From contig OZ024743.1 in the NCBI GenBank assembly GCA_964016885.1, positions 45,756,001 to 45,820,000 of the forward strand: a stretch of DNA of 64,000 nucleotides. Direction: 5' to 3'. Below are positions 5,725 through 34,586 of the stretch, in pieces. Each line of letters begins with the position of its first letter. Positions within the stretch are counted from its first letter, which is position 1. This DNA comes from Eledone cirrhosa. Taxonomy: Eukaryota. The notes under the pieces are model-generated. The model saw only the letters and a program-made list of their open reading frames with translations. It made no database searches and had not been told where the DNA came from. Made by a program: the position numbers and the translations under genes.

Positions 5725-5930
5725 AGGAACCAGTAAGACCGCGATGGCTGAGCTCAAGCCGTTTCGACGGCTAATTCTGGACTAAATTTTAGTCCAGAAT
5801 TAGCCGTCGAAACGGCTTGAGCTCAGCCGTCGGGGTCTTACTGGTTCCTATTACCCACTCTACTACCCCAAGTATTGAGTACTTTGGTGCGTTATGGTCC
5901 ACCTGGTTCCTTACCACATTTCCTTCGTTA
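5725..5930. mobile_element. Fold-back mini PLE, family B (other copies 6317-6480 and 15449-15643)
   Basis: Palindrome centred ~5787 containing gccgtc-GAAA-cggc-tt, long arm continues ~80 nt to (TA)n; three copies share the layout. Confidence 0.75.
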
Positions 5931-6502
5931 TATATATATATATATATATATATATATATATATATATACATATACATATATATACATATATATATACATA
6001 TATATACATATATATATATACATATATATACATATATATATATACATATATATACATCTATTTATATATACATATACATATATATATATACATATATACA
6101 TATATATATATATATACATATATATACATATATATATATACATATATATATACATATATATACATATATACATATATATACATAAATGTATATGTATACA
6201 TATATATACATATATATATATATATACATATATATATATACATATATATATATATACATATATATACATATATATACATATATATACACACATATATATA
6301 TATATATATATATATGTAATAGGAGTAAGTAAGACCCCGACAGCTGAGCTCAAGCCGTTTCGACGGCTGGAGCTCAGCCGTCGGGGACTTACTTACTCCT
6401 ATTACCCACTCTACTACCCTAAGTATTGAGTACTTTGGTGCGTTATGGTCCACCTGGTTCCTTACCACTTTTCCCTTGCTATATATATATGTATATATAT
6501 AT

Positions 6503-6900
6503 AACTTTGATAACTTTGATAGGTTTCGGCCAGTATTAGCCCAAGCCTTGTCTAACTTAATAGTACCACCTGGCGAAGTCTTACAAATCAGTTTTTGGGC
6601 ACCATGGCCCACTCGAACAGAGAGTTATTGTTTACGGAGGCATATCCGGGTGTTGGAGGCTTATCCGGGATTTATTGAAGGAATTTATCCAAAGACTTCT
6701 TGAACTTCATGGGGTCTGCCTCTGCTTTGATATGTTTTGGTGTAATGTTAAAGAGTATAGGGCCAATTGAGGTGAAATAATTGTGCCGTATTGTTGTTAT
6801 GTGATGCAAATGGGATTTTTGTCCTGGGCGGATAGCACGGGGCCCAAGCCTTGCGTGTACACTAAAGATGATGCCAACACTATTTGGACAAAGCTGATGG
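6503..6900 (-). mobile_element. 3' fragment of a CR1/L2-group LINE
   Basis: RLGPRA..TIRHNYFTSIGPILFNITPKHIK..FKKSLDKFL is a typical CR1-group ORF2 C-terminus; 3' tail repeat atcaaagtt x2. Confidence 0.7.
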
Positions 6901-6943
6901 AATATATATATATATATATATATATATATATATATATATATAT

Positions 6944-7530
6944 ATAAACGGAAAAAATGAAACGAAATTTCATTTTCCACTCTTAGTACGGCTGTTACTT
7001 AAATATAAGTAGGTATACGTACATACATATATGTATACAGACGTACAGTAGTATCTATATATATATACATACATGCACGCATATATACATGTACGTATGG
7101 ATTCACCGAACATTTATTATAATGCTCGGTGTATTTGTAAACAAACATCCCGTATTAAGCCGTAGTGTCTTGCAACCATCGTTGCTCGTTTGTTCAACAC
7201 TGACAAAGGAACGCTGTACTAGTTTCAAGCTTATTAGCTATCGTCAGCAACGTATACCTTCAGGGCAGATGATTGAACGTTTGAAAGTATATACTTTCCT
7301 TATGCATATTAACGGCTGAGCAGCCTAATTTGCATATCGAGTGGGTTAATCGGCCGGGTGCACCGAAAACGATAAACGGAAAAAATGAAACGAAATTTTA
7401 TTTCCCACTCTTAGTACGGCTGTTACTTAAATATAAGTATGTACACGTACATACATATATGTATACAGACGCGCAGTATATATACGTACATGTATATATG
7501 TCTGCATGTATATATGTGTATGTATGTATA
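6944..7530 (-). mobile_element. ORF-less hammerhead-containing tandem element (~428-nt unit, about 1.4 copies), retrozyme-like
   Basis: ataaacggaaaaaatgaaacgaaat.. recurs at 6944 and 7372; hammerhead at 7211-7253; no ORF; ends in (TA)n. Confidence 0.7.
7211..7253 (-). ncRNA. Minimal type I hammerhead ribozyme
   Basis: acgttg-CTGACGA-tagctaataagctt-GAAA-ctag-TA-cagcgt on the minus strand. Confidence 0.8.
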
Positions 7531-7565
7531 TATATATATATATATATATATATATACATACTACT

Positions 7566-7795
7566 GCTCGATAATGCACTGGGGTCATGCACTGGGGTCG
7601 ATTTAATAGACTTTCCCCTCCCCTTCAAATTGTTGGCATTGTGCCTAATGTAGAAACAATTATTTTCGCTATTCTGAGTTCGAATCCCGCCGAGGTAACT
7701 TTGCCTTTCATCCTTACGGGATCGATAAAATAAACGACCAGTAATGCACTGGGTAATTGATGGCCTTGTGCCAAAAAGTAGAAAACAATTATTAT
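7566..7795 (+). mobile_element. tRNA-derived SINE family S1, partial tandem copies
   Basis: B-box gagttcgaatccc then core gcctttcatccttacggg(g)tcgataaaataaa; tail gtagaaacaattatt. Confidence 0.75.
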
Positions 7796-31399: not shown

Positions 31400-31662
31400 A
31401 TTGAAATAAAATAACAAGGACGATTATTTACTCCTTCAATACGTTTATTGGTTGGTGACGCACGTTTCGCCACTGATCAGGTCAAGGTTTGATCTGTATC
31501 GATCTATTCCGACTCTTAATCCGCGGTTCGTCAGAATGGTAATGTTATTTTATTTCACTATAATACACTCTGTCTAACTCTACACCTCGACACTGAAGTG
31601 AACCTAAACATCGAGTGCTCACCCGGGTGAACCTACAGTAACTCCAAGTTACACTCCCTGGA
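31400..31662. mobile_element. Two-armed mini PLE with hammerhead core on the minus arm (~31450-31540)
   Basis: Minus: CTGACGA..GAAA-cgtgcg-TC..tgttattttatttca; plus arm restarts at tgttattttatttca and carries the cactc..gagtgc tail. Confidence 0.7.
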
Positions 31663-31690
31663 TATATATATATATATATATATATATATA

Positions 31691-31835
31691 TATACAAATT
31701 AAAATGAAGAATTAGAAATAGAAGCCAGGACTATCCATCATCAGTGGTCTACTAGCTATCATAGGTATTTCTTCGCAACCACTGATGATGGATAGTCCTG
31801 GCTTTTATTTCTAATTCTTCATTTTAATTTGTATA
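31691..31835. repeat. 57-bp inverted repeat centred on a defective hammerhead
   Basis: Arms 31691-31748 and 31779-31835; cca-CTGATGA-tggatagtcc-tgg with no GAAA/stem III. Confidence 0.75.
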
Positions 31836-32749
31836 TCACATTTCCAATCACATTTATATATCACATTTGTATATCACATTTGTATATTACTATGTTCGTA
31901 TAGTACTATATGAACATACCAGACAACAACACGACGGTAACATAGACAACATAGAAATTAGAATAATATCTAAACATAGAAATGACCCAGCAGAGAGGCC
32001 AGTGAAATAGAACTTAGAAGGCCAAGGCTAAACAGAAAAAATGAATGGAATAACAACACCCAAACAAACAATACTGACCTAAGAGAAGTATAAATAAATA
32101 AATAAATACATACACAAGCACAATAACAACAAACACATATAAACACACACTAGTAAACTAAGATAGAATACAGTAACCAATACACAGTCACCCAAACACG
32201 AACACACATCAAACACTTCACACACGCGCAAACGCATGCGCAGAGAAGACAAAAACAAATAATAAATAAACAGACTAAATAAAGATGGCGTAGGCATACA
32301 ATACAACAGGAGGAAACATAATAGCACCACTGACGATGTTGCAGATGTGCAACGAAAGAACTTTGTTAGACTATCTATATGTGTTTGTGTCTATATTGTA
32401 TCTGTATTTTTGACCGTTGGTCAGTCAATGGTAACATTGAGGACCGAATAAATTAAATTAACCGATATAAAAGACACAGAAGCGAAAACCAACCAAGCAG
32501 TGAGTGTGTTCTGTTATTAATTCTGGCAATATTATTACACAAATGTGACCCTCCCCTATATATATATATATATATATATATATAAATATATATATATATA
32601 TATATATATATATATATATATATATATATATATATATATATATATATATATATAAGAATACTGCGTGGTTGCACATGGGTTACATATGATAAAAATAGTC
32701 CTTCATCAGTGATTTATATATATATATATATACAGAGAGAGAGAGATAT

Positions 32750-33025
32750 ATCTATTGTCTTAGCCTGATCTCCGTGTGTCTAGTGTGCTCTACTGACTAC
32801 AAGTAGCTGGGGATATATGTCCGTGTTTTATTGACGGGCGTAAGAGTGAGTACTCAATACTGAAGTAAAGTTTAAATATTCTTTATTATAGCTGAGTGGG
32901 GAGTTTTATTACTCTGGAGTTTCACCTGGGCACTCATAGTAACATAAGAGTCTTGTCTGCTGATCCAGCGCGAACACAGGTGAAACTTCAGAGTAACAAG
33001 ACTCACCACTTAGCCCTAATAGAAT
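32750..33025. mobile_element. Fold-back mini PLE with hammerhead at 32948-33004 (+)
   Basis: gagtcttgt-CTGCTGA-..-GAAA-cttcagag-TA-acaagactc (9-bp stem I, core A6 to C); 32884-32928 is an imperfect inverted copy that continues into a gagtac-containing tail. Confidence 0.75.
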
Positions 33026-34338
33026 ATATATATGTGTGTGTGTGTATGTGTGCGTGTGTGTGTGTGTGTTCATAAATATACATTTTTTTTTATAAATTAT
33101 TAAAATCGTATGTATTCTACTCTCTTCTTAATGAGTTTAATTATTTTTAATATTCGTATAACTATTAATTTATCTTCATTATCTGAACGATTCCAAAAAT
33201 GTACTCGTAGACTATTTCTCAGACGTTTAAGTGAATTAATAAACATGATACTTCATTTATATATGGGGATTTAAAGCCACGGGAAACCACTGGAATACAC
33301 AGGAATACACGTTGATGTTTTTCCTTGAGCTATTCTTCTAGGCAGTTATTTGCAAAGATAATGATGATTTTTCAATGGCTATTTAAAATGATATTATTAT
33401 CAACATATCATTATCATGGTGAATGAATATTTGATGTTTAATATTTGCAGTGTCTTACCGTGTTTTATCTTATGTTTTTATCGAAATAGCATTTTCACCA
33501 TAACACCTCACCTCGTCTAAATTTCTCACAATTCCGTCAATCCATCATTCTGGGCAGGTATTATATTTTATCGACCCCCCTCCCCCACCTCGAAACGTTA
33601 GAAGTAAAGACGAGTTCTGTTGAATTTGAACTCAGAACCCAAAGATCAAATAGAACAAGATAATTTCCCCAAGGTCTAACGACTCTGTCAATTCATTGCC
33701 TATGTTTGTAGGGAACTTGACGAACGCCGATCACAAGCTGAACAAAACCCCATGTAATATATTACGACTATCCATCTAGTTATGAACCCTGAGCTGCTGT
33801 TGGAACCGTAGGAGCATTATCACGACATATATCGTTTCTTGACTATCAAAATTTAGTGAAGCCCATCTCGCTCCAATATTGACAGAGTTAGAGTGAGTGG
33901 CACAGATAGAGACATGAAGAAGAATCAACCCCAGTACTAGACTGGCACTTTACTTATTGATCCTTAAGGAATGAAATGCAAAACTGATCCCGACTAGATT
34001 TGAACTTAGAAAGCAGTGATTCTGAACGAATGCCGCAAAACATTCTATCCAACGTTAAAACAATTCTGACACTTCAATGCCTTACCATACCATCACAGAA
34101 TTACAAATTACAAAATTACTCCAATACCAAAAGAATTGATTGGCAGCTTTGGAATAAGTTACATCTTACTTGATCAAAGTAATTAACGTAAATGGTTTTC
34201 AAACAATGTACATAGGCCGAATTCTCGAATTTTTAAGCGGTGAGAATATATATATATATATTTATAGGGATATATATATATATATATATATATATATATA
34301 TATATATATATATATATATATATATATATATATATATA

Positions 34339-34586
34339 GCAAAAGGGATATTCAATTTGTTGGTAATTCAACAAATATAAATGTTTATAACTGATTCAGA
34401 GCACTCGACATGTTTTCTGGAGTATAATATACAATGATATTAAATAAATGGAAACTATATTTATAAAACCATATTTATTATATTATATATATTTCAAGAG
34501 TACCAAAATGTTGGTACCCTTGAAATATATATAATAGAATAAATATGGTTTTATAAATATAGTTTCCATTTATTTAATATCATTGT
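34339..34586. mobile_element. Fold-back mini PLE, family A relative
   Basis: Palindrome centred on gtaccaa-aatg-ttggtac (~34509); left arm extended by ~90 nt with tactcc..gagtgc on the minus strand. Confidence 0.8.

What the first reader, a model, noticed from the sequence alone, without database searches (positions are those of the whole stretch)
5725..34586. Mini-palindromes turn around inside the hammerhead stem II
Seen: in the smallest elements the axis of symmetry lies a few bases upstream of the hammerhead GAAA: ~5787 and ~15505 (gccgtcGAAA), ~12191 (ccttGAAA), ~34509 (taccCTTGAAA), ~15718 (at CTGATGA); single-arm copies at 4335 and 15091/15263 are truncated at the same place. Inference: reverse transcription stalls at the ribozyme, and the self-complementary stem II lets the cDNA snap back and self-prime, or lets two cDNAs anneal. 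That would give the ribozyme a structural role in integration beyond cleavage.
Basis: partly seen in the sequence, partly recalled or inferred. Interest (0 to 1): 0.75.

Follow-up and report, generated by a model that had tools for sequence, protein, structure and literature searches.

The report
Penelope stubs turn at transcription start
These small DNA palindromes are real, very common back-to-back stubs of Penelope-like jumping genes, and their turning point likely marks where each element's capped RNA begins (inside the ribozyme stem in only one of the large families tested), which would explain how this class builds its mirror-image ends.

Summary
The palindromes are real: head-to-head stubs of hammerhead-bearing Penelope-like elements (Hydra-type) in (TA)n, one arm ending at the pLTR end, the other carrying a tail. 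Mapping arm ends genome-wide splits the claim. Family B (5787, 15507): 71 of 100 arms end in the stem II 3' strand, far above length-dependent truncation, but 0 of 40 short pairs keep the native loop or 5' strand, so stem II pairing is not the turn. Family D (15719) stops 6 nt upstream of the core; family A mostly about 88 nt upstream (2 of 94 arms end in stem II). Each family's sharp stop sits on an initiator-like A with a TATA-like box at about -30 (B, D) or a DPE-like word at +27/28 (A), and B arms ending there mostly carry an extra G (86 G to 14 A). Best reading: RT runs off the capped 5' end of the RNA twice and the two cDNAs join. No RNA data tested the start. This scan noted the same reading before, in this and other genomes.

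The parts
5725..5787 (-). Family B left arm: 63 nt of pLTR end, (TA)n-primed side, reaching 4 nt past the main stop
   Evidence: aligned to native copies L034/L031
5788..5849 (+). Family B right arm: stem II 3' strand, GAAA, stem III, predicted GUC cut site, stem I 3' strand, pLTR end
5850..5931 (+). Family B tail, about 82 nt, the start of the next unit
   Evidence: 82 nt in 88 of 105 tails scored; continues into the ORF in L034
6316..6478 (+). Third family B insertion; axis 6360 on a TTCG spacer of a small local hairpin next to GAAA, not on stem II pairing; with tail
15451..15643 (+). Family B palindrome, axis 15507; right arm starts at the main stop (initiator-like A) with an extra G before it; tail to 15643
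12126..12344 (+). Family A palindrome, axis 12191 within the stem II 3' strand, 2-nt overlap, native loop not kept; tail on right arm
34341..34581 (-). Family A palindrome, axis 34508.5; keeps the native stem II hairpin and loop (true stem II join); tail on left arm
4260..4400 (+). Family A insertion: inverted tail-only arm (4260-4335) joined to an arm starting in the stem II 3' strand
1025..1266 (+). Family A long arm with whole hammerhead (core 1073-1114) and tail; reads through stem II
3329..3562 (-). Family A arm with whole hammerhead; ends about 64 nt upstream of the core
15694..15745 (+). Family D palindrome, axis 15719.5 on the core CTGATGA, a few nt inside the family D stop; arms decayed beyond GAAACAGT
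3620..3745 (+). Family D long arm with TATA-like box (3648-3655), initiator-like A (about 3677) and whole hammerhead (core 3682-3704)
14966..15096 (-). Family C single arm truncated in hammerhead loop II/stem II, joined to (TA)n
15137..15268 (-). Local tandem duplicate of the family C arm (same event)
   Evidence: 99% identity
26308..31289 (-). Long Hydra-type PLE: 5'-truncated 746-aa frame (27670-29910) with 1.4-kb inverted arms that read through the hammerhead
40878..44915 (-). Long PLE with RT frame (41566-43605) and 800-nt inverted arms that read through the hammerhead

Best explanation
The mini-palindromes are head-to-head stubs of Penelope-like elements whose arms stop at a sharp, family-specific site, and that site is likely the capped transcription start of the element's RNA, from which the reverse transcriptase likely runs off twice before the two cDNA ends are likely joined. 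Steps. (1) Shown: each B palindrome has one arm ending at the pLTR end in (TA)n and one arm with an 82-nt tail. (2) Inferred from in vitro work on another PLE (PMC11167929): the enzyme nicks both target strands and starts RT at two internal sites of the RNA, here the pLTR end and the tail end. (3) Inferred: the transcript starts inside the upstream pLTR, so it carries these two start sites only 60-190 nt from its 5' end; RT started there copies through the uncleaved hammerhead and falls off the cap, often adding a C opposite it. (4) Shown: arm ends reach the stop but almost never pass it by more than 4 nt, and joins have 0-1 nt overlap in about half of cases; inferred: the two cDNA 3' ends are trimmed by a few nt and joined with little or no microhomology. 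(5) The axis falls in stem II in family B only because that family's start site lies there. Where an end happens to fall in a self-complementary stem (family A stem II, other local hairpins) the stem can guide the join, as a minor route.
For: Sharp stops at different places relative to the hammerhead: B 59-63 nt from the pLTR end, 43 nt downstream of core position 3, with 0 of 100 ends at 67-96; D 6 nt upstream of the core, 0 of 91 ends in the next 32 nt; A about 88 nt upstream, 29 of 94 ends in the 40 nt up to it. Initiator-like YYA+1NW plus TATA-like box at -29 to -33 exactly at the stop in 11 of 13 distinct long B arms and 14 of 19 long D arms; initiator plus DPE-like word at +27/28 in 23 of 24 long A arms (A arms were selected for the initiator word); shuffled rate 0.002-0.004 per position. 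Extra non-native purine before the B stop is G in 86 of 100 listed of 7,458 hits, 38 G to 9 A after removing letters explained by the partner arm; 8 of 10 arms ending at the stop have G against 4 of 18 ending one base earlier. 30 of 30 measured B pairs have one tail and one (TA)n arm; 25 of 30 share the 3' haplotype (chance about 0.24) and one pair differs at three diagnostic sites. Penelope's promoter lies in the pLTR with an intron 46 nt after the start (PMC2377424); family A has a conserved donor-like GGTAYGT about 45 nt after its stop.
Against: No RNA 5' end was mapped. The promoter words are recalled consensus motifs, their spacing tolerances were set after seeing the sequences, and the long arms are close relatives, not independent trials. 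In the unselected anchor sample G was not more frequent at the stop than elsewhere (4 of 7 against 8 of 17 untemplated letters), so a general habit of this RT to add C is not excluded. Some B arms pass the main stop by 2-4 nt (18 of 98 ends at 60-63, partly overlap), which needs a second start at the A 4 nt upstream. Family A ends are spread over about 90 nt below the stop, and 37 of 94 pass it. Families E and F (33 and 30 arms) show no clear stop with a promoter signature. A full-length B or D copy starting at +1 would lose its TATA box; only one B partial tandem was seen (L034, long upstream copy), so this could not be tested.
Confidence: 0.72

Rival explanations
1. One reading: RT stalls at the hammerhead and the native stem II lets the cDNA snap back or two cDNAs anneal, as the general cause of the mini-palindromes.
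For: 71 of 100 B arm ends lie in the stem II 3' strand. 34509 keeps the native hairpin; so do 26-30 of 50 listed family A stem II palindromes by eye (15 inspected with flanks). Self-priming at junction palindromes was proposed for PLEs in PMC3846280.
Against: 0 of 40 and 0 of 49 B palindromes keep the native loop or 5' strand. Stop rate is highest at the top of the stem and zero in its 5' strand. A: 2 of 94 arms; D: main stop upstream of the core; F: 1 of 30; E: 0 of 33. 163 A cases against 47,466 anchor hits give an axis density no higher than further upstream (rough estimate). Extra G and promoter words are unexplained by it.
Confidence: 0.08
2. The stop is an RNA 5' end made by processing (nuclease cut in a loop or a structure-dependent RT stop) rather than a transcription start.
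For: The B stop lies next to the apical loop of stem II; the A stop lies just 5' of a small hairpin in some subfamilies; G excess is not proven to be stop-specific.
Against: The stops lie in three different structural settings, yet each has an initiator-like A with TATA or DPE at textbook spacing; G after the stop 8 of 10 against 4 of 18 one base earlier.
Confidence: 0.12
3. Mini-palindromes arise after insertion by central deletion of long inverted copies, or by copying of a few mini master elements.
For: An inverted duplication of a hairpin creates direct repeats, and deletion between them gives exactly the hairpin-keeping product seen in family A (inference); some junctions recur letter for letter.
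Against: B junctions are diverse, the same junction recurs in different subfamilies, single arms joined to flank or tail stop at the same site, and deletion would not add G or respect a promoter.
Confidence: 0.08

Closest known systems
EN+ Penelope-like element insertions with an inverted 5'-truncated copy and a one-sided tail (Craig et al. 2021, PMC8557442; Adineta Pen2a, PMC3846280)
   Same: Head-to-head arms, tail on one arm only, (TA)n targets, hammerhead in the pLTR, palindromic junction.
   Different: Here the insertions are often only the two stubs (11,134 exact B mini-palindromes), tails are about 82 nt rather than 30-40, and arm ends pile up at one site per family.
Hydra clade of C-terminal EN+ PLEs (PMC8557442, section 11)
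   Same: Parent ORF of family B (L034, 786 aa) has RWR, DKT, YRDD, CxCx5C, GIY-YIG-like EN without CCHH, CxxC and CxH; inserts in (TA)n. Long A and D copies have CxCx5C and a GIY-YIG-like EN.
   Different: RWR for RWK; family A has DKI; unit about 3.1-3.6 kb; the B hammerhead is a U3-A8 variant with a long stem II. No tree was built.
PAc Poseidon element in vitro (Frangieh et al. 2024, PMC11167929)
   Same: Two internal RT start sites that define the tail, both target strands cleaved and extended, uncleaved RNA is the main template.
   Different: That work did not map where cDNAs end in genomic copies or explain inverted stubs; its start sites lie inside the ORF 111-150 nt after the start codon.
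L1 twin priming and untemplated cap G of full-length L1/SVA (PMC4859970)
   Same: Two primers on one target site make an inversion; extra G marks a capped 5' end.
   Different: In L1 the two cDNAs cover adjacent parts of the RNA; here both arms cover the same 5'-terminal stretch.
Self-priming model for PLE inverted repeats (Arkhipova et al. 2013, PMC3846280)
   Same: Addresses the same head-to-head junction palindromes; notes TATA and TCACT initiator words in a pLTR.
   Different: It needs an antisense template; stops at a sense-strand start with an extra G point to a sense template and two primers.

Membership tests
EN+ Penelope-like elements | Single ORF with RT and GIY-YIG endonuclease in the parent element | tested here: met
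   L034 786-aa frame with YRDD and GIY-YIG-like motif; 37% identical to the window's 746-aa frame; Pfam finds no family for it, so this rests on motifs
EN+ Penelope-like elements | pLTR: partial tandem and inverted 5'-truncated copy | tested here: met
   L034 holds inverted arm, partial tandem and full unit; 30 of 30 short pairs are head to head
EN+ Penelope-like elements | Tail on one end only | tested here: met
   30 of 30 pairs; 82 nt in 88 of 105 tails
EN+ Penelope-like elements | Hammerhead motif in the pLTR | tested here: met
   Core, stems I-III in A, B, D by sequence; B folds with the three-stem layout (z -2.5 for L031, -0.6 for L034); cleavage not tested
Hydra clade | DKT, RWK, CxCx5C linker, no CCHH, CxxC and CxH, (TA)n target | tested here: met
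   for B (RWR variant); A has DKI and CxCx5C, D has CxCx5C
Hydra clade | Phylogenetic placement of RT with Hydra families | not tested
   no reference Hydra proteins were fetched
Stem II snap-back products | Native stem II loop and 5' strand kept at the axis | tested here: not met
   family B 0 of 40 and 0 of 49; met only in a rare subset of family A
Run-off at a capped transcription start | Capped RNA 5' end mapped at the stop | not testable with these tools
   no RNA run was listed
Run-off at a capped transcription start | Core promoter words at fixed spacing from the stop | tested here: met
   (B 11 of 13, D 14 of 19, A 23 of 24 with selection on the initiator); recalled motifs
Run-off at a capped transcription start | Untemplated G specific to the stop | tested here: inconclusive
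   strong G over A excess, 8 of 10 against 4 of 18, but no contrast in the unselected sample
MITE / self-copying fold-back element | Copies share one junction and both termini | tested here: not met
   junctions vary from copy to copy and termini are asymmetric

The most novel reading that the evidence does not exclude
Tens of thousands of genomic stubs record that Penelope-like elements prime both nicked strands at two fixed sites near the 5' end of one capped, sense, uncleaved transcript and run off its cap, so the inverted pLTR of this class is a double run-off product and each family's palindrome axis maps its promoter; hammerhead stem II acts only as an occasional joining aid.
Probability: 0.6. 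Interest if true: 0.65.

Novelty: new member of a known kind. Interest (0 to 1): 0.5.

Why it matters
How PLEs make their inverted pLTRs, and whether they copy a sense or an antisense RNA, is left open in the papers read (PMC3846280, PMC2377424, PMC11167929). If the axis is the capped start, genomic stubs give a base-level map of PLE promoters, show that RT reads through the uncleaved hammerhead in vivo, and yield a direct test: move the RNA 5' end and the junction should move. It also means such palindromes are dead by-products that repeat annotation may misfile as MITEs or miRNA hairpins.

Tried and rejected
Rfam scan found no hammerhead family among the 150 rows shown of 198, only sub-threshold hairpin matches; hammerheads were found by motif and folding. 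DNA search of the own genome with the B arm returned nothing because common words are skipped. Family C could not be tested for enrichment (2 and 7 hits). No RNA holder listed for L034:3700-4700; no reads were laid. Stop at the predicted ribozyme cut as main cause: rejected, about 3 of 100 B arms end at or next to it and no A arm ends exactly there; D not testable because its anchor lies upstream of the cut. Simple length-dependent truncation: rejected for B and D. Two different RNA templates as a rule: not supported, 25 of 30 pairs share the haplotype. Start of upstream pLTRs in partial tandems: only one case. Position control for the extra G gave no contrast in the unselected sample. One search stopped on a script error after printing the stop rates and was redone; the tail count was void by an offset error and redone. 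A possible second start in family A near stem II (TATA-like box at -33) was noted and not tested.
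Full report
Setting. The window is G000:C4:45756001-45820000 of a 3.0-Gb animal genome rich in (TA)n. Self-comparison shows several repeat families, many as palindromes or long inverted arms, with CTGAnGA...GAAA cores. Two long elements carry Penelope-type RT frames between inverted arms (26308-31289, 40878-44915). I label the families A (1025, 3329, 4260, 12126, 34341), B (5725, 6316, 15451), C (14966, 15137), D (3682, 15694), E (7069, 13723) and F (12744, 32265).

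Observation. The five axes are at 5787, 15507, 12191, 34508.5 and 15719.5. Four lie in stem II of the family's hammerhead; 15719 lies on the core. 4335 has an inverted tail-only arm before it, so it is a two-arm insertion. 15091 and 15263 are one duplicated event of a rare family.

What the elements are. The parent of B is a PLE: L034 holds an inverted arm, a partial tandem and a full unit with a 786-aa frame bearing RWR, DKT, YRDD, CxCx5C, a GIY-YIG-like motif, CxxC and CxH, the marks given for the Hydra clade (PMC8557442, section 11 read); Pfam names no family for it. Its hammerhead is a U3-A8 variant, a type reported in PLEs (PMC4209133, part 1 of 4 read), with a long stem II. Long A and D copies also have CxCx5C and GIY-YIG-like motifs. 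Anchor patterns hit 60,456 (B), 47,466 (A), 39,260 (D), 12,296 (E) and 4,363 (F) places. Samples are the first listed hits on contig C1, not random draws.

Family B test. With an anchor at the pLTR end, all 100 listed arms were mapped: 13 end at 19-41 nt from the end, 71 at 42-66, none at 67-96, 16 further. A constant stop rate predicts 39.5, 27.0 and (for 67-130) 18.6 against 13, 71 and 1 seen (paired arms are not independent). So the pile-up is real. But its edge is at the top of the stem II 3' strand, and no short pair holds the native loop or 5' strand (0 of 40; 0 of 49 recovered of 50 listed, spacer limited to 30 nt). Of 40 pairs 30 could be measured (10 dropped for a short or mutated arm): overlap 0-1 nt in 17, one tail arm and one (TA)n arm in 30, same 3' haplotype in 25. 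Tails are 82 nt in 88 of 105. Genome-wide there are 11,134 exact B mini-palindromes.

Other families. D: 98 arms, 7 same-flank duplicates dropped, 91 mapped; 45 end in the 12 nt upstream of the core, 17 in the core, 7 in stem II, none in the next 32 nt, 22 further; its anchor includes GAAA, so shorter arms are unseen. A: 94 arms; 3 scored in stem II, one of them an internal deletion, so 2; 29 end in the 40 nt up to a stop about 88 nt upstream of the core; 37 pass 215 nt; a few rows are mis-binned by (TA)n or shared flanks. F: 1 of 30 in stem II; E: 0 of 33, a tandem 424-nt repeat; neither shows a clear stop. The window's three A junctions in stem II are thus atypical of the family.

A pattern for A palindromes turning in stem II finds 163 places; 66 of 94 A arms carry the 16-mer used, so the true number of like age is perhaps 230-330, under 1% of anchor hits, and per base no denser than axes further upstream (7 short pairs in 100 listed anchors over about 85 nt; rough). 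Among 50 listed, 26-30 by eye keep the whole native hairpin, like 34509. This fits two cDNAs annealing through stem II, or deletion after insertion between the direct repeats that a hairpin makes in an inverted copy; I could not separate these.

What the stops share. Each lies on an initiator-like A. With recalled consensus words (YYANW, TATWWAW at -28 to -33, RGWYV at +27 or +28; tolerances set after viewing the data) the signature falls on the stop in 11 of 13 distinct long B arms, 14 of 19 long D arms and 23 of 24 long A arms (A selected for the initiator word, not for the DPE word); shuffles give 0.002-0.004 per position. The A signature persists across subfamilies whose intervening sequence differs, with a donor-like GGTAYGT about 45 nt downstream; Penelope has its promoter in the pLTR and an intron 46 nt after the start (PMC2377424, passages and Discussion read). 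Native B copies have T or C before the A; where a purine stands there it is G in 86 of 100 listed of 7,458 hits. In 74 such arms read with flanks none was a long native arm with G; 38 G to 9 A were unexplained by the partner arm, 22 to 1 explained, 4 flagged otherwise. In the 49 palindromes, 8 of 10 arms ending at the A have G before it against 4 of 18 ending one base earlier (p 0.005). Against this, the unselected sample gave 4 of 7 against 8 of 17. Untemplated G is the accepted mark of a copied cap in L1 and SVA (PMC4859970, passages read). The window's 15507 right arm has this G.

Mechanism. A PLE protein in vitro cuts and extends both strands, starts RT at two internal sites that define the tail, and prefers uncleaved RNA (PMC11167929, parts 1-2 of 4 read). 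A transcript starting in the upstream pLTR holds those two sites 59-63 and about 141 nt (B), 66 nt (D) or about 187 nt (A) from its 5' end. Priming there gives two short cDNAs that run off the cap and are joined head to head after slight trimming. The arm anatomy and stops are shown; the start site, the cap and the two-primer order are inferred. About 3 of 100 B arms end at the predicted cut site, too few to call.

Comparison with what is known. Inverted 5'-truncated copies, tails and (TA)n targets are described (PMC8557442, passages read); opposite-strand hammerhead pairs 100-700 bp apart were noted (PMC4209133); junction palindromes were explained by self-priming on an antisense template (PMC3846280, passages read). 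Six searches on PLE junctions listed no paper that ties junctions to the transcription start or to stem II; passages of a 2026 retrozyme preprint and of a cephalopod repeat annotation (PMC13282606) did not treat it. The library lacks most subscription papers and I opened no supplements; those of PMC8557442 hold Hydra consensus sequences and may bear on clade membership. This scan's earlier notes reach the same reading in this and other genomes; I formed it before reading them (notes), and they are not independent support.

Verdict. Interest 0.5.

Noticed in passing
window 3329-3745: Head-to-head chimera: a family A arm on the minus strand, a short plus-strand piece of A around its stop, then a long family D arm on the plus strand, suggesting a join between two families' cDNAs.
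   Followed up: no
window 6354-6367; L001 near 1500: A small hairpin formed by the stem II 3' strand and stem III 5' strand of family B (TTCG/CGAA loop) serves as the axis at 6360 and is locally inverted in L001.
   Followed up: partly
window 7069-7526, 13050-13959; G000:C1:9968436-9972147: Family E is a hammerhead repeat of about 424 nt in tandem and inverted arrays, retrozyme-like; 12,296 anchor hits.
   Followed up: partly
L177 1500-1750 (G000:C27:9144984): Tandem array of 50-nt hammerhead monomers related to family C.
   Followed up: no
L081/L082 (G000:C1:71706-72069): Family A palindrome whose centre holds a 14-nt templated piece of stem II between two arms that both end at the stop.
   Followed up: no
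G000:C1:4946980, 5226772, 18731501: Runs of 12-16 A/T added at the family B stop, possibly slippage on the U run just 5' of the main start.
   Followed up: no
family A long arms, 71-73 nt before the anchor end: A second initiator-plus-TATA signature inside stem II in 10 of 24 long A arms; may be a minor start that feeds the rare stem II ends.
   Followed up: no
window 21491-24439 (-): 982-aa frame with RT, RNase H and integrase domains of a Ty3/gypsy-type LTR retrotransposon, between 234-nt direct repeats at 20789-21022 and 26057-26289.
   Followed up: no
window 52998-63889: Several nested or tandem decayed LINE copies with AP endonuclease, RT and zf-RVT domains.
   Followed up: no
window 17292-17375, 31694-31832, 34616-34707, 44916-45487: Further palindromes without a recognised hammerhead; 44916-45487 has 182-nt arms around a (TA)n/(TG)n centre.
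   Followed up: no
window 12744-13033, 32265-32556: Family F carries AAGATGGCG (YY1-like word, recalled) about 45 nt upstream of the core, where 8 of 30 sampled arms end.
   Followed up: partly
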